Positions 17,993-26,007 of a stretch of 26,572 nucleotides of DNA are shown here, piece after piece; position 1 is the first letter of the stretch, and each line of letters opens with the position of its first letter. Made by a program: the position numbers and the translations under genes. A model generated the notes under the pieces. That model had not been told where the DNA came from and made no database searches. It saw nothing but the letters and a program-made list of their open reading frames with translations. The stretch is from Phycisphaerae bacterium (GTDB lineage Bacteria > Planctomycetota > Phycisphaerae > UBA1845): NCBI GenBank assembly GCA_041748515.1, contig JBGTDB010000324.1:1-26572 (forward strand), written 5' to 3'.

Positions 17993-19042
17993 TCAGGGCA
18001 GCGAGTACCAGGTCGAGCGGCCCCTGCCACCGCGCTTCAGGTGGCCGGCACCGGTGAGTTCGGCGAGCCTTTTCTTTATCGTGCCTCGGGGTGCTTGCGT
18101 TACGCGAATGATGTCGGCGACGTGAATCTGGCCGTACTCCGTCGCGAGGTCTAGGATGGCTACGGCGAGCTCCGGCATGGTCGAGCGCATGATTCTCTCG
18201 CGCTCGACTTTGGTTTCCAGGTTGCGCTTCTGCCGCTGGAGCGAATTGAGAAAAAACATCAGCCACGCAGACCAGTTGGGGGCCTTTTTCTTGAGCGTGC
18301 CCTGCGTCCGGCGAAGAGCCAGGTAATAGCCCTCCTTGTTCTGCTCAACGATGCTTTCAAGCGAACTGTAGGGCACGTAGGCGTAGCCGTTTTTCAAGAG
18401 GAGCAAGGTGGTTAGCGCGCGGGACAGGCGGCCATTGCCGTCCTGGAACGGATGAATGGCGAGAAAGACGACCACGAAGACCCCGATGGCGACCAGCGGG
18501 TGCAGAGACTTCTCCTTCATCGTCATGTTGAACCAGGCGACGAGTCTTTCCATTTCACGGGGCGTGTCGAAGGGAGACGTGGTCTCAAACACGATGCCCA
18601 CCGATTTGCCCCTGTGATCGAAGGCCTCGACGCTGTTGGGGAATTTCTTGTATTCGCCGCGATGCCGGGCGTCCTTGGTGGAGTGCTTAAGCAGCATGCC
18701 GTGAAGCTGCTTGATGTAGTTCTCGGTGACGGGGATGGCGTCGTAGTTGGAGAACACCGTCTCCATGACCAGGGCGTAGCCGGCGACTTCCTGCTCGTCG
18801 CGCGTCGCGAAGGACTTGGCTCTAACCCGGCCAAGCAACGCCTCGACCTGCCGGTCGGTAAGCTTGGCCCCCTCGATCCGCGTCGAGGAGCCGACGCTCT
18901 CGATGGTCGCGATTTTGCGCAGCTCGCGGAGCCGCTCCGGGGCGAGCTTGCCGATGGCTCGCCAAGCGCCCTTGAACTCGTCGATCTCAGCGATGAGCGA
19001 GAGTATTTCCTGGGTGATGGTGAGCGAGCCGGTGCGGATCAT
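17993..19042 (-). CDS. fic: Fic-family protein (class II-like, C-terminal wHTH), copy 1
   Basis: HPFQDGNGRLSR active motif, inhibitory-type SSTRIEG, C-terminal HTH. Start MIRTGSL at 19042 is preferred over 19060. Confidence 0.92.
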   Translation of the reverse strand: MIRTGSLTITQEILSLIAEIDEFKGAWRAIGKLAPERLRELRKIATIESVGSSTRIEGAKLTDRQVEALLGRVRAKSFATRDEQEVAGYALVMETVFSNYDAIPVTENYIKQLHGMLLKHSTKDARHRGEYKKFPNSVEAFDHRGKSVGIVFETTSPFDTPREMERLVAWFNMTMKEKSLHPLVAIGVFVVVFLAIHPFQDGNGRLSRALTTLLLLKNGYAYVPYSSLESIVEQNKEGYYLALRRTQGTLKKKAPNWSAWLMFFLNSLQRQKRNLETKVERERIMRSTMPELAVAILDLATEYGQIHVADIIRVTQAPRGTIKKRLAELTGAGHLKRGGRGRSTWYSLP

Positions 19043-19073
19043 AGCCACAAATATAGCCAATTAGAGCCAATTA
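19042..19073 (-). repeat. Three tandem ~10-bp repeats upstream of Fic copy 1
   Basis: Minus strand TAATTGGCTC, TAATTGGCTA and TTTGTGGCTA, the last overlapping the ATG. An opposite-strand GTGGCTATAT lies at 19111-19120. Confidence 0.7.
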
Positions 19074-19576: not shown

Positions 19577-21402
19577 GTGGCCCTGCGTGAATACAAACGA
19601 AAACGCAATTTCGATGTGACCAGCGAGCCGGGCGGTTCGAAGAAAAGAAAAACAGCGCAGCACCTGTTCGTAGTGCAAAAACATGCGGCTACCCGCCTGC
19701 ACTACGATTTCCGCCTGGAGTTCGATGGCGTGCTAAAAAGTTGGGCAGTGCCCAAAGGGCCGAGTCACCGCAGCTTGCAACCCGCATGGACGTGGTGCCC
19801 GAAGGCGACGATTGGATCCACGAAATCAAACTCGACGGTTATCGAATCCTCTGCGTCCTGGATAACGGGAGCGCGCGCCTTCTATCGCGCAATGGGTTGG
19901 ATTGGACAGATAAGTTTCCTGAAATCGCCAAGACCGTAACTTCACTGGGCGTCAATGGTGCGATCATCGATGGCGAGGTGGTGGCGCTAAATCCATCCGG
20001 TGTGCCGGATTTTCAGGCACTACAAAACCGGCTGAAAGGCACCACGGAGACACCATTGGTGTACTTTGCATTCGACCTAGCCTTCTGGGAAGGCTACGAC
20101 TTACGACGCGTAACGCTGATTGAGCGGAAGAAGGTGCTCAAGAAGTTGATCGCTTCGTTTGGCAAGGGTCCCTTGCGTTACAGCGATCACATCGCCCGCG
20201 AAGGATCGAAGATGCTGAAAGAAGCATGCCGGCTCGGCGTGGAAGGCATTGTTTCGAAGCGCGCGGACAGCCTCTATCTCTCAAAGCGGAACCTTGATTG
20301 GATCAAGATCAAGTGCAAGAGAGGTCAGGAGTTCGTAATCGGAGGCTTCACTGACCCGAGCGGCTCCCGCCAATCGTTCGGGTCGTTATTGGTTGGATAC
20401 TACGACGATAGCGGCCACCTACGTTACGCGGGGCGGGTCGGCACCGGCTTCGACGACGCTGGTTTGACCCAGCCAGGGGCGAAACTTCGGAAGCTAGAAA
20501 TCCCAAAGAGCCCATTCGTCGACGCCCCCCGCAGCCGGGGTTTTCATTGGACCCGCCCTAAGCTGGTTGCAGAAGTCGAGTTCTCGGAAATGACGCGAGA
20601 TGGGAAGTTGAGGCATCCCGCTTTCAAAGGTTTGCGACAAGACAAGCCAGGCAGGGAAGTTGTGCTAGAAGAATCCTCGGCAGGGCGAAATGGCAAGGCG
20701 AATAAAATCTCCGCCGCATCATTCATCGAATCTCCTGGTAAGCGAGCGCCTTCAACGAAACCTCTTTCGAACAACCTGGTCGCGGGCGTCTCCCTCACGA
20801 ATCCTGACAAGGTCTTTTACCCCGACGACGGTGTGATGAAGCGCGACCTTGCCCTTTATTACGAGGCCCTCGCTGAAGTGATGCTTCCACATGTTGCAGG
20901 CCGCCCATTGATGATCGTTCGGTGTCCCGAAGGCATTGGCGGAAAGTGCTTCTACCAGAAGCACCTGAACACTACGCTCCCTCCGGCGTTTCGCGGTGTC
21001 GAGATCCAAGAAAAGAAAACTCGTGGAACTCACCTTGTGCTCGATGACGTGCGCGGACTAGTCTCGCTGGCGCAGATGGGGGTTCTCGAAGTCCATACCT
21101 GGGGCTGTCGGGCAGATCAAATCGAACGACCGGATCGACTCATCTTTGACCTCGACCCATCGCCGGAGGTAGCGTGGGACGCCATCGCCGAGGCGGCCTT
21201 CTTGTTACGCGCCCTACTATCAGAGCTGGATCTCAAGAGTTTCGTTAAAGTTTCGGGGGGTAAAGGGCTACACGTCGTGCTTCCAATCGAACGGCGATAC
21301 ACGTGGGAACATCGCCCCGCCAGACTTACGCACTGGCTTACGCAAAGGCATGGCCGGGTATGGCCGGAAAGGTCCGGGAAAGGCACTTTGTACAGATCGT
21401 GA
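19577..21402 (+). pseudogene. ligD: NHEJ LigD remnant (PE stump, ligase+OB, truncated polymerase)
   Basis: PE motifs [35 protein letters not shown] end at 19765. Out-of-frame junction to PQLAT at 19768. Ligase motifs [27 protein letters not shown]. Pol motifs FDLDP and SGGKGLHV; similarity ends near 21310. Confidence 0.88.
21325..21368. repeat. Tandem short repeats left of att copy 1 (arm-site-like)
   Basis: CTTACGCA at 21325 and 21337; ATGGCCGG at 21350 and 21360. Confidence 0.55.
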
Positions 21403-21419: not shown

Positions 21420-21450
21420 TCGTAACCTTCGGTGCCACCGAAGGTTACGA
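21420..21450. repeat. Perfect 31-bp palindrome (one central base); terminator or protein-binding dyad
   Basis: TCGTAACCTTCGGTG-C-CACCGAAGGTTACGA, ending 10 bp from the att core. No strong U-tract on either strand. Confidence 0.8.
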
Positions 21451-21460
21451 ACGATCCGAA

Positions 21461-21484
21461 GAATGGAGGCGGGGGGAATCGAAT
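21461..21484 (-). repeat. att core copy 1: 3'-end fragment of tmRNA (ssrA), or tRNA-Ala
   Basis: Minus strand A-TTCGATT-CCCCC-CGCCTCCA-TTC gives T-loop, 3' T-stem and acceptor strand with U70/A73 alanine-type identity. The 5' T-stem is absent. Identical to 24109-24132. Confidence 0.85.
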
Positions 21485-21616
21485 TCGACACCGAAAGGCG
21501 GTGAAAACCGCGTTTTCCAACCAAAAAATGCGGATTTGCCGAGGGTTACGCGAAAAGTCGACCTGACCACTTGCGACCCATGAAGACTCTTCAAAACCAT
21601 CAGAGACCCCTTTTTG

Positions 21617-21634
21617 CGTGTACCTATCGTGTAC
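21617..21634. repeat. Tandem CGTGTAC x2 (arm-site-like)
   Basis: cgtgtac-ctat-cgtgtac, 11-bp period, about 130 bp inside att copy 1. Confidence 0.55.
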
Positions 21635-21709
21635 TTCGACCGACGCCTCGCTGCTTTCCCATGCTCGTCCCGGTGGCCTGAAAGTGTTGTTCCCCTGAGA
21701 GTTCCAGCG

Positions 21710-21749
21710 GAATTGGCTACTCGCCGATGAATCGGCTATTATTCGGCTA
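21710..21749 (+). repeat. Three ~10-bp repeats upstream of Fic copy 2
   Basis: GAATTGGCTA (21710), GAATCGGCTA (21729), TATTCGGCTA (21740). Confidence 0.7.
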
Positions 21750-21769
21750 CTGGCCACGAGAAAAAAACG

Positions 21770-22816
21770 ATGTCGACCCTGAACCCTGAACGCCTGCACG
21801 ACTTGTCTATACCGTTGAGTACGAGTTGGCTGCTGTCCGCCTGCATGGAAGCCAAGGGCAAACAGGACCTATGGATCCGCCAAAAGCCAGAAGTGTTGGA
21901 GGCCCTGCGCGAACAGGCCATCGTTCAAAGCGTCGAATCATCCAATCGGATCGAGGGCGTAACGGTTGACCGAGATCGCCTGCGGCCCCTGGTGCTTGGC
22001 CAGGCGAGGCCGCGCGATCGCTCGGAGGAAGAGGTGGCCGGTTATCGCAAGGCGATCGATTGGGTGTTCACGCGAAAACGTCGAGTAGCCATCGAGCCGC
22101 ACGTCATTCAGCACCTTCACGCCCTGGCACAAGGTGGAATGTCGGGGGACGCTGGCAAGTGGAAGCGCAGGGATAACGAAATCATCGAGATTCTGCCGAG
22201 CGGCGACCGCCGCGTACGCTTCAAGCCCACTCCGGCCAAGGCAACGCCGCAGGCGGTGGCGAAACTCTGCCGTGACTATCACGCCGCTTGTGAGGGAGAA
22301 CCAACGCCTGCGCTGATCGCCGTCGGAACCTTCGTGTTCGATCTGCTTTGCATTCATCCCTTTCGCGACGGCAATGGCCGCGTGTCGCGATTGATCACGA
22401 CCATGCTGCTGTTGGAACAGGGATTCGAGGTGGTCCGGTACATCAGCCTCGAACGACTCGTTGAGGAAAGCAAGGCAGATTACTACAGCGTTCTGGAAAG
22501 ATGTTCAACGGATTGGCACGCGGGCAAGAACGAGATTGTTCCGTGGTGGAACTACTTCCTCGGAACGATTCGGCGTGCGTACGATGAGTTTGCGGCGCAC
22601 GTGGAATCCTCCGACCGCCGCTCAGCCAAGGGTGACCTCGTACGCCGAGCGGTCCTGGATCAGGCGGGGCCGTTCTCACTGGCGGAATTGCACGGCCAAC
22701 TTCCCGCCGTCAGCGTCCAACTCGTCAAGAGAGTCCTGGCGGAAATGAAGGCGGCGGGCGAGGTTCAGCTCAAGGGCCGAGGACGCGGAGCACTTTGGGA
22801 ACGAATCTTGCAATAA
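21770..22816 (+). CDS. fic: Fic-family protein (class II-like, C-terminal wHTH), copy 2
   Basis: HPFRDGNGRVSR, SSNRIEG, EEEVAGY, and C-terminal HTH ...GRGRGALW. Confidence 0.92.
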   Translation: MSTLNPERLHDLSIPLSTSWLLSACMEAKGKQDLWIRQKPEVLEALREQAIVQSVESSNRIEGVTVDRDRLRPLVLGQARPRDRSEEEVAGYRKAIDWVFTRKRRVAIEPHVIQHLHALAQGGMSGDAGKWKRRDNEIIEILPSGDRRVRFKPTPAKATPQAVAKLCRDYHAACEGEPTPALIAVGTFVFDLLCIHPFRDGNGRVSRLITTMLLLEQGFEVVRYISLERLVEESKADYYSVLERCSTDWHAGKNEIVPWWNYFLGTIRRAYDEFAAHVESSDRRSAKGDLVRRAVLDQAGPFSLAELHGQLPAVSVQLVKRVLAEMKAAGEVQLKGRGRGALWERILQ

Positions 22817-22843
22817 CAATGGCTGCTCGAACGAACCAGTTAG

Positions 22844-23362
22844 ATATGCATCGACGCCGAGTGCGTGGGGCGGCAGCGCCGGCGTGTGCAAGATCGACGT
22901 CAAGCCGTAGCCAAAAAGAAGAACCATGAATTCGGACGGCGTCAGAAGCTGATGGAACACGCAAACCGTTGGCACGACGCCCAATGCATTCGCGACTACC
23001 TTTCCGCCTTGCAGGTGGCCATCGACGCGGAGCGGGTACATCCCGTCGACGAAGCAGGCTTCCGCGAGTGGTTCGACTGGGCAACCTAGTACGCCGATTC
23101 GATCGACCCGATCCTTCAAGCACCTTACCCGGATGAAGAGCACGAAGATCCCGTCCACACGCCCATGACGGAGCTTAACCTCACGGCCCGAGGGCGCGCC
23201 GTCATTGCCGAACTGGAAGTTGGCGATTCGGACGAACTGGCGCGGTTGCCGTTGGGCCGGATCAGTGAAGCCTGCGGCTACTATGACTCGGCAACCCGGC
23301 AGGAGATCCAACGCGTACTGGAGGGCTTGGGCTACGCGACCGCGAAGTTCGAGGACCACTAA
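22844..23362 (+). pseudogene. 5'-truncated gene with internal TAG; C-terminal RNAP alphaCTD-like domain
   Basis: ORFs 22865-23089 and 23165-23362 are one frame: ...WFDWAT*YADSIDP...MTELNLTARGRAVIAELEVGDSDELARL...TRQEIQRVLEGLG. Confidence 0.55.
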
Positions 23363-23602
23363 GGCTGGTGACGGGCACGATGGACGACCCCCGCGATGCT
23401 CGGAGGCACGGGCCGCCCCACCCTAACACGCAGGAATGCGAAGCCTTCAAAATGAGGGAAAGCGCGGTTACATTGAGGGTGGCGTACCTGGGGCCGGCCC
23501 ACGATGTCGGAGGTGGAGGGTAAGATGCAATCCGGCACGAGGGTCCAACGCCGAGTCGCGTGACCGAGGTTCGTGGAACGTGGCCACTCCATGAGGGCAA
23601 GA

Positions 23603-23716
23603 ATGGGAACGGAACGGATTAAGACCTTCGTTTACCTCAACGCCGAGAAATCGAGCGTCTACCGCGCGGTTATGCGCGTCTTCACGGAGGCAAAGGCGAG
23701 ATTCGCGTTGCAACTG
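23603..23716 (+). pseudogene. jetA: 5' stump of TIGR02677/DUF2397 protein (type II Wadjet JetA)
   Basis: MGTERIKTFVYLNAEKSSVYRAVMRVFTEAKARFALQL resembles, from recall, the F.Y..AE....YRA.MR.F..AK.RF.L.L N-terminus. Similarity ends after 38 codons. Confidence 0.65.
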
Positions 23717-24108
23717 CCGACCGGTGTTTGCCACCACCTTTTGCTGGTGACACGCCGGCTCCCGATCCTCTTTATATTCTCATTTCTTGTCAGCCGGCTT
23801 TAACCGGGCTTGCGCGTGCTCCTCCCGAAGCGGCGTTGCTCGGCCACCTTTCGATGCACGACTTGTAACACGGTACCGATCAAACGAACTTTCCAATCAC
23901 CGCTTTCAGCCGGCCATGACCCTCGATTGGCTATTCAAGACAAGGTCTTCAATGGTCTCGTATGGTCTGAAGCGTGAGGGAGTTGCGAATCCCCCCGCCC
24001 TTCGGCGTAAACACCGAAAAAATGGGGATATCTGACCCTTCATGAGGCGAGCACACGCATTTCTTGGTGTGCGAGAAACTCATAACCTATTGTAAATAAA
24101 TGACTTAC

Positions 24109-24132
24109 GAATGGAGGCGGGGGGAATCGAAT
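24109..24132 (-). repeat. att core copy 2: 3'-end fragment of tmRNA (ssrA), or tRNA-Ala
   Basis: GAATGGAGGCGGGGGGAATCGAAT, 24/24 identical to 21461-21484. Confidence 0.85.
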
Positions 24133-24338
24133 CTTCCTCGAATTCCTCGGAAAATAAGCCCAATTCTAAATCGCGCGGCACAGAATCCGGCACACTTAGC
24201 AAGGCTTCGCATCCGGTCGCAGCCCACGGAACCGAGTTGCAAATTGTCGTTGATGCTTGGTCATCGCTACCGGCTGCGCTGCGCGCACGCATCCTCGGAA
24301 TGGTCGAAGGCGCGACCGCCGCACGGGAGGAGGATTGA
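24111..24338 (+). CDS. att-initiated small ORF with C-terminal VVDAW..LP...RA.IL.MV helical motif
   Basis: ATG lies within the att core. The stop is 3 bp before the next ATG and the last codons supply its GGAGGAGG RBS. The N-terminal half may be non-functional. Confidence 0.45.
   Translation: MEAGGIESSSNSSENKPNSKSRGTESGTLSKASHPVAAHGTELQIVVDAWSSLPAALRARILGMVEGATAAREED
24176..24194. repeat. Tandem CGGCACA x2 (arm-site-like)
   Basis: cggcaca-gaatc-cggcaca, 12-bp period, 43 bp inside att copy 2. It also encodes GTESGT. Confidence 0.55.
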
Positions 24339-24341
24339 TCG

Positions 24342-24716
24342 ATGGATTGGTCAATGCCCGACATCCCGGCCAAGTATCGCAAGCTCTATGAGCGAGCCCG
24401 AGCCGGTAAGCCCAAGGCGGCGATTCGAGCGCATTGCCTGATGTGCGTGGGCTGGGAGCCGGCTGAAGTCGAACGCTGCACAGCCACGGGCTGTCCGCTC
24501 TACTCACTCCGAAACTTGGCCGCTCAGGCCGCGACCGAAGCGGGAGATAGGGCCAAACGGCGGGAAAGGGCCCTCAAGGCCGGTCATCGACCCCCGAAAC
24601 CTGCCCCAGTAGATGGGCACGGTGCCCAGGAAGTCGGCCCGATTTTGAACGCTACGGAACCTCTTCGTGGCAAATCCTTGCCGGAACCCGTTTTGGAGCA
24701 AACTGGCATGAAATGA
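24342..24716 (+). CDS. Small phage-type Zn-finger-like protein
   Basis: AIRAHCLMCVG...VERCTATGCPLY..R (C2-C2) with a strong RBS. Confidence 0.75.
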   Translation: MDWSMPDIPAKYRKLYERARAGKPKAAIRAHCLMCVGWEPAEVERCTATGCPLYSLRNLAAQAATEAGDRAKRRERALKAGHRPPKPAPVDGHGAQEVGPILNATEPLRGKSLPEPVLEQTGMK

Positions 24717-24717
24717 A

Positions 24718-24761
24718 AAACCCGCTCCGGTCCAATTCCACTCGGACACCGGGGCGGGTTT
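24718..24761 (+). promoter_or_regulatory. Hairpin immediately upstream of the Prim-Pol start
   Basis: AAACCCGCTCCGGT-16 nt-ACCGGGGCGGGTTT, 14-bp stem with one G-U pair in RNA. Confidence 0.55.
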
Positions 24762-24765
24762 GGGA

Positions 24766-26007
24766 ATGACGGCGATGAGTATACGACCATGTACGACCAA
24801 AGACCAGTCCGCGCGGCATGCACCCCGGAAATCCAACGAGGCGAGTCTGAAAACGGAAGGCCTTTCCTACCTTGCACGGGAATGGTCCGTGATCGCAGTC
24901 AAGGACAAGAAGGCGGTCGGCCGCTGGAAGGAATTCCAGTCACGCCGGCCCAGCGTCGAGGAACTCGAAACCATGCTCGGCGTGGCGGGCGTGACCGGAA
25001 TCGCAGTGATCTGTGGTCCGGTCAGCGGCGGATTGACCTGCCGCGACTTCGACGATCCGGCCGCATACGAGCAATGGCGGCAAGTCCATCCCGACCTGGC
25101 CGCTACATTGCCAACCGTGAAAACGGGACGGGGCTACCACGTCTACTTCCGCAGCACAGTGCGGTCGATTCGGCACCTTGATGATGGCGAACTGCGAGGG
25201 AACGGCTGCTGTCTGCTGCCACCGTCAATTCATCCGTCGGGGAGTCCGTACGCCTGGATTGTGCCGCTTCCCGCGGCTGAATTGCCGTTTGTCGATCCGG
25301 TGCAATCCGGTCTTGTACCCGTTGGGACAGAGAGGACAGAGTGGACAGAGTGTACGGAGAAGGACAGAGTAACTGAAAGCAATGGTGGGGTTTGTCACTC
25401 CGGTGCTACGCAACACGTCACACGCATTCGCAACGGAACCGATATTCGTGATCTCGAAGAGCGCATCGAGCAGGCGATCCGGGCGACCCTGCCTCAGCGT
25501 CCCGGCGAACGAAACCGGCGTATCTTTGACCTGGCGCGGCACCTGAAAGGGATGCCGGAGCTTGCGGGGGCCGATCTACGAGACCTGCGGCCCATTGTGG
25601 GGCAGTGGCATTCTCTGGCGCTCTCGGTGATCACGACCATGCCATTCGAAGATACCTGGGGTGACTTCCAGTATGCCTGGGCGAATGTTCGATTTGCCAA
25701 GGGGGACGATCCCGTGCAGACCATTTTGCAACGTTCCGAAGGGCGGCCTTTCCCAGTCGAGGCGGACCTTTACGAGGCGGTCAATACCAGACGACTTCTG
25801 CGGTTCTGTCGCGAGTTTCAGCGAGAAGCCGGCGAGAACCCCTTCTTCCTGTCATGCCGAAAGGCAGGCGAACTCTTTGGGATGGATCACCGAACGGCTG
25901 CACGACGGCTCAAGGCAATGTGCGGGGACGGCCTGCTGGAGGTCGTCGAGTCCGGCGGAATGCGGGCCAACCGCTATCGGTATCGTGGGATTTTGGATGA
26001 GGCATAG
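24766..26007 (+). CDS. Bifunctional DNA primase/polymerase (Prim-Pol) with PriCT-like and C-terminal HTH regions
   Basis: K.....W..FQ, GIAVICG..SGGL..RDFD, VKTGRGYHVYF, LRG....LLPPSIHPSG..Y.W, GERNRRIFDLARHL, and C-terminal SCRKAGELFGMDHRTAARRL. Start is 24760, 24766 or 24775. Confidence 0.88.
   Translation: MTAMSIRPCTTKDQSARHAPRKSNEASLKTEGLSYLAREWSVIAVKDKKAVGRWKEFQSRRPSVEELETMLGVAGVTGIAVICGPVSGGLTCRDFDDPAAYEQWRQVHPDLAATLPTVKTGRGYHVYFRSTVRSIRHLDDGELRGNGCCLLPPSIHPSGSPYAWIVPLPAAELPFVDPVQSGLVPVGTERTEWTECTEKDRVTESNGGVCHSGATQHVTRIRNGTDIRDLEERIEQAIRATLPQRPGERNRRIFDLARHLKGMPELAGADLRDLRPIVGQWHSLALSVITTMPFEDTWGDFQYAWANVRFAKGDDPVQTILQRSEGRPFPVEADLYEAVNTRRLLRFCREFQREAGENPFFLSCRKAGELFGMDHRTAARRLKAMCGDGLLEVVESGGMRANRYRYRGILDEA

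What the first reader, a model, noticed from the sequence alone, without database searches (positions are those of the whole stretch)
24109..24338. ORF whose start codon is inside the att core: possible recombination-controlled gene or swappable integrase tail
Seen: the ATG at 24111 is antisense of the tmRNA 3' end. The 75-codon frame runs through the arm-like repeat (GTESGT) to ELQIVVDAWSSLPAALRARILGMVEGA and is coupled to the next gene (stop 24338, ATG 24342). Upstream there is no SD and an in-frame TAA at 24093. The same core at 21461 gives only 13 codons. Established: attP within coding sequence changes protein C-termini in Myxococcus phage Mx8 integrase and mycobacteriophage BPs repressor. 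Recall, unverified: this DAW..LP helix motif recurs near planctomycete att sites. Inference: on excision the element's other end supplies an RBS or an in-frame upstream gene, possibly the integrase, switching on this domain and the downstream replication operon.
Basis: partly seen in the sequence, partly recalled or inferred. Interest (0 to 1): 0.72.

Follow-up and report, generated by a model that had tools for sequence, protein, structure and literature searches.

The report
Orphaned tail of a split integrase
The 75-codon frame that starts inside the tmRNA attachment-site copy is most likely the cut-off end of a mobile element's own integrase gene. It would rejoin that gene only when the element excises, a switch known from myxophage Mx8 but here part of a very large, apparently undescribed planctomycete family.

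Summary
A 24-nt exact repeat (21461-21484, 24109-24132) is the antisense of the tmRNA 3' end. The ATG at 24111 lies inside it and opens a 75-codon frame that ends 3 nt before the next gene.

- The C-terminal motif is protein-coding, with third-position wobble.
- It defines more than 8,000 sequence clusters.
- It sits just inside antisense tRNA/tmRNA fragments, about 50-fold enriched.
- In six complete relatives, joining the element ends in silico puts the integrase frame through the core into this tail. A circular 8.3-kb relative and other contigs carry the fusion naturally.

In this genome, the integrase on contig C380 ends with the same 20-mer arm repeat found inside ORF75. A 79%-identical integrase reads the tmRNA core in ORF75's frame.

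The fusion is not shown for this element itself, because assembly breaks separate the parts. The ATG is probably a by-product of tRNA geometry, and no Shine-Dalgarno (SD, ribosome-binding) sequence precedes it. Activation of the downstream replication genes on excision remains inference.

The design is known from Mx8, but there is no sequence similarity to it. This scan has already noted the same planctomycete family on other DNA.

The parts
24109..24132 (-). att core, copy 2: displaced 3' end of tmRNA (T-loop to A73 plus 3 nt). It is the junction between the integrase-less segment A and element B.
   Evidence: Exact 24-nt repeat. Matches the tmRNA end on C476. A Logan contig of the probable source run spans 22493-24276 with 0 differences.
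21461..21484 (-). att core, copy 1: outermost displaced tmRNA 3' fragment, followed at lower coordinates by a perfect hairpin (21420-21450) that looks like the native tmRNA terminator.
24111..24338 (+). ORF75: orphaned 3' end of an attP-spanning integrase gene. It comprises core codons, arm-repeat codons, the conserved two-helix tail and the stop.
   Evidence: Homologues. The same tail is fused in frame to integrases in relatives.
24175..24194 (+). P-arm arm-type site: two CGGCACA repeats 12 nt apart, read as R-G-T-E-S-G-T.
   Evidence: The 20-mer occurs only twice in the 3-Mb assembly; the other copy is the last 20 nt before the end of integrase contig C380. Paired, co-varying repeats flank the core in every relative examined.
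24234..24314 (+). Conserved tail motif ELQIVVDAWSSLPAALRARILGMVEGA.
   Evidence: Invariant L, W, LP and A in 27 tails. Wobble-dominated variation. Two helices with pLDDT 71-83 in the AlphaFold model of the fused relative P0078.
24325..24334 (+). Shine-Dalgarno-like GGGAGGAGGA for the next gene, inside the last codons of the tail.
   Evidence: Read from the sequence.
24342..24716 (+). Cys-rich 124-aa gene of element B. A 92% identical copy on contig C143 follows a tail built on a different tRNA core.
   Evidence: No Pfam or PHROG hit.
24760..26007 (+). Prim-Pol replication protein of element B.
   Evidence: PF09250, E 2e-15. phrog_1156 DNA primase.
21485..24108 (.). Segment A between the two cores. 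It holds a different 'A-type' arm (21485-21640, GTGTAC repeats at 21616-21634), a Fic gene (21770-22816), 1.3 kb without a recognisable gene, and a P'-like end (23965-24108). No integrase.

Best explanation
ORF75 is the detached 3' end of the integrase gene of a small replicative integrative element (element B: tail, Cys-rich gene, Prim-Pol and further genes) inserted in the tmRNA gene of a planctomycete.

In this element family the attachment site attP lies inside the integrase gene. After the catalytic domain the frame continues through about 100 codons overprinted on regulatory DNA. In order, these are arm-type repeats, the replacement terminator for the tRNA gene, the antisense of the tRNA/tmRNA 3' end, and a second set of arm repeats. 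The frame ends in a conserved two-helix tail (..DLxxVVxAWxxLPxAxRAxIxxMV..).

Integration cuts the gene at the core. The integrase is left reading into the antisense of the target gene, and the tail is left at the far junction, where the window shows it. Excision rejoins them.

Shown:
- the anatomy in the window;
- that the tail is coding and att-associated;
- the in-frame fusion in relatives;
- the shared arm repeat and shared core frame with the C380-type integrase.

Inferred:
- that this copy rejoins C380's integrase in frame;
- that the tail changes integrase activity or direction, as reported for Mx8;
- that in the circle the integrase transcript runs on into the Cys-rich and Prim-Pol genes.
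For: 1. Five tRNA-Cys islands and one tRNA-Phe island have the tail at one end and an integrase at the other, reading into the intact antisense tRNA. Joining the ends at the repeat gives one frame from integrase to tail, whereas the integrated gene stops 2 codons after the core.
2. Natural fusions exist: L054, L043, L046 and P0165, and P0048 and P0078. P0078 lies on a Logan contig with a 30-nt terminal overlap, so it is a circle.
3. The C380 integrase has more than 4,300 homologues. In 98 of the 120 listed, a G-[FLIV]-E-x peptide (antisense T-loop) lies at the C-terminal end, so the frame stays open into the antisense tRNA.
4. P0008 (79% identical to C380's integrase) reads the tmRNA core as S-M-E-A-G-G-I-E, the same codon phase as ORF75. 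Sibling pairs with two other cores also share phase.
5. The 20-mer GCGGCACAGAATCCGGCACA occurs only at window 24175 and at the end of C380. The repeats on the two arms co-vary in every element checked.
6. Motif codons have entropy 0.60/0.32/1.24 at positions 1/2/3, with 2,806 synonymous against 1,270 non-synonymous single-difference codon pairs.
7. The tail profile finds 8,286 clusters and hits 53 of 279 genomes of the order. Antisense T-arms occur at 2.96 per kb upstream of the tails against 0.057 per kb elsewhere.
8. The AlphaFold model of P0078 shows a beta-sheet N-domain, a core-binding domain and a catalytic domain. Residues 394-481 are disordered (pLDDT under 50), followed by two confident helices.
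Against: - The fusion is not seen for this element. C380 runs off its contig 20 nt into the arm repeat, the tmRNA contig stops inside the core, and no attP junction of element B appeared among Logan contigs.
- I found no natural tmRNA-core fusion carrying this tail. L084, the closest tail, has in-frame stops just upstream.
- L058/L059 and P0009 join the integrase to the other (A-type) arm, which lacks the motif.
- Two natural junctions are out of frame (L053, L047).
- Long open frames are common in these GC-rich genomes. Three that looked like fusions were not integrases.
- The five tRNA-Cys islands are one lineage, not five independent tests.
Confidence: 0.85

Rival explanations
1. ORF75 is an autonomous small gene, translated from the ATG in the core while the element is integrated. 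It could act, for example, as a free tail peptide in trans on the truncated integrase or on another partner. This could hold in addition to the split-gene reading.
For: An ATG is present here and in the close tmRNA-type homologues P0001 and P0003. Many database orphan tails start with M at the tRNA end. The frame is intact and under purifying selection.
Against: No SD precedes the ATG, whereas the next gene has a strong one. No promoter-like site was found in 23700-24800. The codon is the antisense of C72-A73-N74, so it is xTG by geometry: among 98 integrase homologues it encodes M 43, V 33, I 14, L 5. The tRNA-Cys branch reads the core in another phase with no start there. Purifying selection is equally explained by use in the fused form.
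Confidence: 0.1
2. Excision supplies only a promoter or RBS from the far end of the element. ORF75 is then a separate, recombination-switched gene and is not fused to the integrase.
For: The far end of this element was not recovered, so an unfused arrangement cannot be excluded directly. L084 shows stops just upstream of a tmRNA-type tail.
Against: Relatives show fusion, not a separate start. The integrase frames of the closest relatives pass through the core in ORF75's phase.
Confidence: 0.04
3. The frame is a chance ORF over non-coding attP arm DNA, and conservation reflects binding sites only.
For: The first 28 codons are the core and arm repeats, which are constrained as DNA. A 75-codon open frame is about 9% likely by chance (my estimate at 60% G+C).
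Against: Variation is concentrated at third positions, and the stop is conserved 3-15 codons after the motif in 27 diverse tails.
Confidence: 0.02

Closest known systems
Myxococcus phage Mx8 integrase, IntP/IntX (Tojo et al. 1996 and Magrini et al. 1999, as cited in PMC4383910 and PMC6070905)
   Same: A tyrosine integrase whose attP lies in the 3' part of its own gene, antisense to a tRNA 3' end. Integration gives the gene a new 3' end. The Mx8 Int tail also passes through an antisense T-arm (..STGLEP..).
   Different: No detectable sequence similarity (BLASTP E 0.97; no tblastn hit). The Mx8 tail has no WxxLP motif. Here the target is tmRNA, the host is a planctomycete, the element is a small Prim-Pol replicon rather than a 49-kb phage, and the tail is one motif conserved across thousands of clusters.
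SSV-type integrases of archaeal viruses and plasmids (PMC7253208, PMC8371274)
   Same: attP lies inside the integrase ORF, so integration splits the gene.
   Different: In the SSV type the gene is cut into two inactive halves. Here only a tail beyond the catalytic tyrosine is exchanged, so the integrated gene keeps all catalytic parts.
Integration-dependent immunity of mycobacteriophage BPs (own knowledge: Broussard et al. 2013)
   Same: attP inside a coding sequence changes a protein's C-terminus according to integration state.
   Different: In BPs the affected gene is the repressor. Here the upstream partner in relatives is the integrase, and the tail shows no repressor or HTH family.
Tandem genomic islands at tmRNA genes (Islander, PMC4383910)
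   Same: Displaced 3' fragments mark the ends of successive insertions. The crossover lies in the T-loop/T-stem sublocation.
   Different: The inner segment (A) has no integrase, and the outer one is only partly on the contig.

Membership tests
Integrase gene spanning its own attP (Mx8 IntP/IntX design) | The recombinase is a tyrosine integrase. | tested here: met
   C380: PF00589 and phrog_1. The homologues all carry PF00589.
Integrase gene spanning its own attP (Mx8 IntP/IntX design) | There is no stop between the catalytic domain and the att core, and the core is read antisense to the tRNA/tmRNA (in relatives). | tested here: met
   In 98 of the 120 listed homologues an antisense T-loop peptide lies at the C-terminal end. 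P0008 reads the tmRNA core.
Integrase gene spanning its own attP (Mx8 IntP/IntX design) | The same feature in this genome's own element. | tested here: inconclusive
   C380's frame is open to the contig end, about 130 nt short of the core by comparison with L058. No contig bridges the gap.
Integrase gene spanning its own attP (Mx8 IntP/IntX design) | The excised form continues in frame into a tail encoded at the other end of the element. | tested here: met
   In silico for six islands. Natural in the circular L060 and in L054, L043, L046 and P0048. Exceptions are L053 and L047.
Integrase gene spanning its own attP (Mx8 IntP/IntX design) | The tail swap changes integrase activity. | not testable with these tools
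   Known for Mx8 only from the literature (PMC6070905).
Mx8 Int protein family (sequence homology) | Significant sequence similarity to Mx8 Int. | tested here: not met
   BLASTP E 0.97. Mx8 was not among the tblastn hits.
Planctomycete WxxLP-tail elements (family defined here and in earlier scan notes) | The WxxLPxx[VIL][RK]AxI motif is followed by a stop within about 15 codons. It lies within about 70 codons of an antisense tRNA/tmRNA 3' fragment, with a 12-nt-spaced direct repeat between them. | tested here: met
   Window. Family.
tmRNA-targeting genomic island | A displaced fragment is identical to the 3' end of the genome's tmRNA gene. | tested here: met
tmRNA-targeting genomic island | There is an integrase inside the island. 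| tested here: not met
   There is none in the window. The candidate lies on another contig (C380).
Integration-dependent immunity (BPs type) | attP lies inside the repressor gene. | tested here: not met
   The upstream partner in relatives is the integrase. The tail matches no family.

The most novel reading that the evidence does not exclude
The tail works as a state sensor with two outputs. Fused to the integrase in the circle, it is needed for integration or blocks re-excision. Left behind in the chromosome, it is translated on its own from the xTG codon that the tRNA/tmRNA end creates, and acts in trans on the truncated integrase or on the element's replication proteins. In the circle only, integrase transcription also runs through attP into the Cys-rich and Prim-Pol genes. 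Excision, replication and re-integration would then be coupled by one recombination event.
Probability: 0.12. Interest if true: 0.65.

Novelty: new member of a known kind. Interest (0 to 1): 0.5.

Why it matters
- **Annotation.** Thousands of short "hypothetical proteins" next to tRNA or tmRNA fragments in Planctomycetota are explained as the severed ends of integrase genes. Many integrases in this group are annotated with C-termini that are really antisense tRNA.
- **Island mapping.** The tail motif plus the paired arm repeats is a precise marker for the attR junctions of these elements.
- **Biology.** If the tail controls integrase activity, as reported for the Mx8 tail swap, this would be a widespread built-in way to make integration self-limiting. 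The family offers many natural variants to test how an exchangeable peptide beyond the catalytic tyrosine tunes a tyrosine recombinase.
- **Overprinting.** About 100 codons simultaneously encode arm sites, a terminator and half a tRNA gene.

Tried and rejected
- ARAGORN and Rfam found no tRNA or tmRNA in the window. The tmRNA gene is on another contig.
- The genome-contig scan with the tail alignment gave nothing.
- Complex prediction of the C380 integrase with the 40-residue tail gave no verdict. It is evidence neither for nor against binding.
- Laying Logan contigs of four runs showed the integrated junction but no attP junction of element B and no extension of C380. Contigs drop rare forms, so this says nothing about excision.
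- A search of the assembly for the missing piece between C380 and the core found nothing.
- Long open frames upstream of tails in three genomes of the order looked like fusions but are not integrases.
- The 1.3 kb before core 2 (22800-24110) holds no degraded integrase.
- The Mx8 primary papers (PMC93897, PMC178153) are not held, so Mx8 facts rest on PMC6070905 and PMC4383910.
- Literature searches for this arrangement in Planctomycetes found nothing relevant.

Full report
**What is in the window**

The window is a whole contig (C324) of a 3.0-Mb, 554-contig, 76%-complete metagenome-assembled genome. A 24-nt exact direct repeat lies at 21461-21484 and 24109-24132. Its reverse complement is T-loop, T-stem 3' strand, acceptor 3' strand with U70, and A73.

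The genome's only tmRNA gene (Rfam RF00023, 107 bits) is on contig C476. That contig ends inside this very sequence. ARAGORN and Rfam find no RNA gene in the window, so both copies are displaced fragments.

- ATG at 24111;
- 75 codons to the TGA at 24336-24338;
- next ATG at 24342;
- in-frame TAA at 24093;
- 13 codons from the other copy.

No GGAGG-like element precedes the ATG. GGGAGGAGGA sits before the next gene, so this organism does use Shine-Dalgarno sequences.

A Logan contig from the probable source run (hot-spring metagenome) covers 22493-24276 without a difference. The junction is therefore not an assembly artefact.

**ORF75 has relatives, and they sit at att sites**

Four proteins are 63-77% identical. 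A paralogue on contig C143 keeps the C-terminal half but has a different N-terminal half. It is followed by a 92%-identical copy of the next gene.

In each of these, the N-terminal part is the antisense translation of a tRNA or tmRNA 3' end: MEAGGIE, LETKGFEPS, MEPARLE or PRGFEPL.

A metagenome scan with the alignment returned 32 loci. Twenty-four have a strict antisense T-arm within 300 nt upstream of the motif, a density of 2.96 per kb against 0.057 per kb elsewhere in the same loci.

A profile of 27 tails finds 8,286 clusters at E of 0.001 or better among 1.84 billion representatives. The best 150 are all short ORFs with the motif at their C-terminus. ORF75 alone hits 53 of 279 genomes of the order.

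**The tail is coding**

Over the 24 motif codons of 27 diverse tails, the entropy at codon positions 1, 2 and 3 is 0.60, 0.32 and 1.24. Codon pairs differing at one base are 2,806 synonymous against 1,270 non-synonymous. The stop follows 3-15 codons after the motif in all of them.

**The upstream partner is the integrase**

Six loci hold a complete island. The tail is at one end, and at the other an integrase on the same strand reads into the antisense of an intact tRNA-Cys or tRNA-Phe.

Joining the two ends at the direct repeat gives one frame running from the integrase, through the core, into ..VVEAWSSLPPAVRAGILAMVxASR and a stop. The integrated gene instead ends two codons after the core (tRNA-Cys) or inside the tRNA (tRNA-Phe).

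The same fusion occurs naturally in several sequences:
- L054, L043, L046 and P0165;
- P0048 and P0078.

P0078 lies on a Logan contig of 8,365 nt with a 30-nt terminal overlap. That is a circular element, with HTH_17, primase-DUF3987 and integrase genes.

There are exceptions. L053 has a one-base frame shift between core and tail, although its relative P0143 is in frame. L047 has the tail in another frame.

**Link to this genome**

Contig C380 carries an HTH gene and a tyrosine integrase. The integrase frame is open for 393 codons up to the contig end. Its last bases, GCGGCACAGAATCCGGCACA, are identical to window 24175-24194. This 20-mer occurs nowhere else in the assembly.

C380 reads these bases as A-A-Q-N-P-A-Q. 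ORF75 reads them as R-G-T-E-S-G-T. They are therefore DNA elements, not a protein repeat.

Every element examined carries the same pair of 12-nt-spaced repeats on both sides of its core, and the repeat differs between elements: GTGCCCAC, GTGACCAC, GCGGCGCA, and here CGGCACA. This is what arm-type integrase sites would look like.

The AlphaFold model of P0078 has a three-stranded N-terminal domain of the kind that binds such sites in lambda Int (the comparison is from my own knowledge).

C380's integrase has more than 4,300 homologues in Planctomycetia and Phycisphaerae. In 98 of the 120 listed, a G-[FLIV]-E-x peptide, the antisense of the T-loop, lies at the C-terminal end.

P0008, 79% identical to C380's integrase, reads the tmRNA core as S-M-E-A-G-G-I-E. 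That is the codon phase of ORF75. Two sibling specificities show the same agreement between integrase and tail.

**What is not shown**

The ~130 nt between C380's end and the core are missing, and nothing in the assembly or in the Logan contigs bridges them.

L058/L059 and P0009 join this integrase type to the other kind of arm, the one that follows core 1 in the window. There the frame stops after 11 codons or runs on without the motif. The closest tmRNA-type tail, L084, has stops just upstream.

If an integrase sits next to the intact tmRNA and reads in this phase, it would acquire 57 tmRNA-antisense codons after G-I-E. This is an inference.

**The start codon**

The codon is the antisense of C72-A73-N74, so it is xTG whenever the integrase uses this phase. 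In 98 homologues it encodes M 43, V 33, I 14 and L 5. The tRNA-Cys branch uses another phase and has no start there.

With no SD and no promoter-like site, independent translation is possible but not indicated.

**Structure and mechanism**

In the P0078 model, residues 394-481 are disordered (pLDDT under 50). The last 29 residues form two helices with pLDDT 71-83. The disordered stretch is the part overprinted on the arm repeats, the antisense of a terminator hairpin (the recurrent ..EKTPVLPGFA.. peptide) and the core.

I infer that the tail is an exchangeable module that modifies integrase activity, as reported for Mx8. There, integration creates a new 3' end of int and alters the enzyme's specificity rather than inactivating it (PMC6070905). 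Islander explicitly allows for integrases that extend across attP (PMC4383910).

Coupling of the tail stop to a co-directional gene is seen here and in some relatives but not in others.

**Comparison and novelty**

Mx8 Int shows no similarity to this family, and its tail lacks the motif. The design is the same; the family is not.

I found no paper on this arrangement in Planctomycetes. Earlier notes of this scan describe the same family on other genomes, so this window adds a tmRNA-targeting member rather than a new principle.

Noticed in passing
window 19741-21402: The LigD-like gene (ligase plus Prim-Pol domains) stops at profile position 178 of 254 of its Prim-Pol domain, about 90 nt before the hairpin that follows core 1. 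The gene appears truncated at the edge of the island array.
   Followed up: partly
window 21485-21640; C282 12313-12407 and 17882-17955; L058 2926-3020: A second kind of arm ('A-type', with GTGTAC repeats at window 21616-21634) follows the tmRNA core. In the window it bounds a 2.6-kb integrase-less segment with a Fic gene. In C282 two copies bracket a 1,634-aa gene with no integrase. In L058/L059/P0009 it follows a C380-type integrase. These may be integrase-less passengers that use the same att site.
   Followed up: partly
window 24132 joined to 21503 (soil run X3, contig of 9,570 nt): A relative's contig joins the sequence just before core 2 to the A-type arm after core 1, with 18 differing bases between. 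Segment A therefore occurs either as a circle or as a tandem repeat.
   Followed up: no
window 23976-23999: An inverted, imperfect copy of the core (CGAATCCCCCCGCC; 83% complementary over 24 nt to 24116-24139) lies 110 nt upstream of core 2. Its origin is unexplained.
   Followed up: no
window 24342-24716 and 26022-26572: Summed contig depth is two to four times that of neighbouring sequence in the source run. One Logan contig skips 24759-26010, giving a variant without the Prim-Pol gene. Several related elements coexist in the community.
   Followed up: no
window 17993-19060 (-) and 21770-22816 (+): There are two Fic-family genes in opposite orientation, one in the flank and one in segment A. 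They share 73% nucleotide identity over about 107 nt.
   Followed up: no
P0126, P0127, P0133, P0162, P0204: Some database ORFs carry two copies of the tail motif in one frame. This is as expected from tandem junctions, or it could be duplication of the module.
   Followed up: no
L060 5535-5565; integrase homologues P0019-P0125: The recurrent integrase peptide ..EKTPVLPGFA.. is the antisense of a hairpin plus T-run that would terminate the restored tRNA gene. The protein sequence here is dictated by a terminator.
   Followed up: partly
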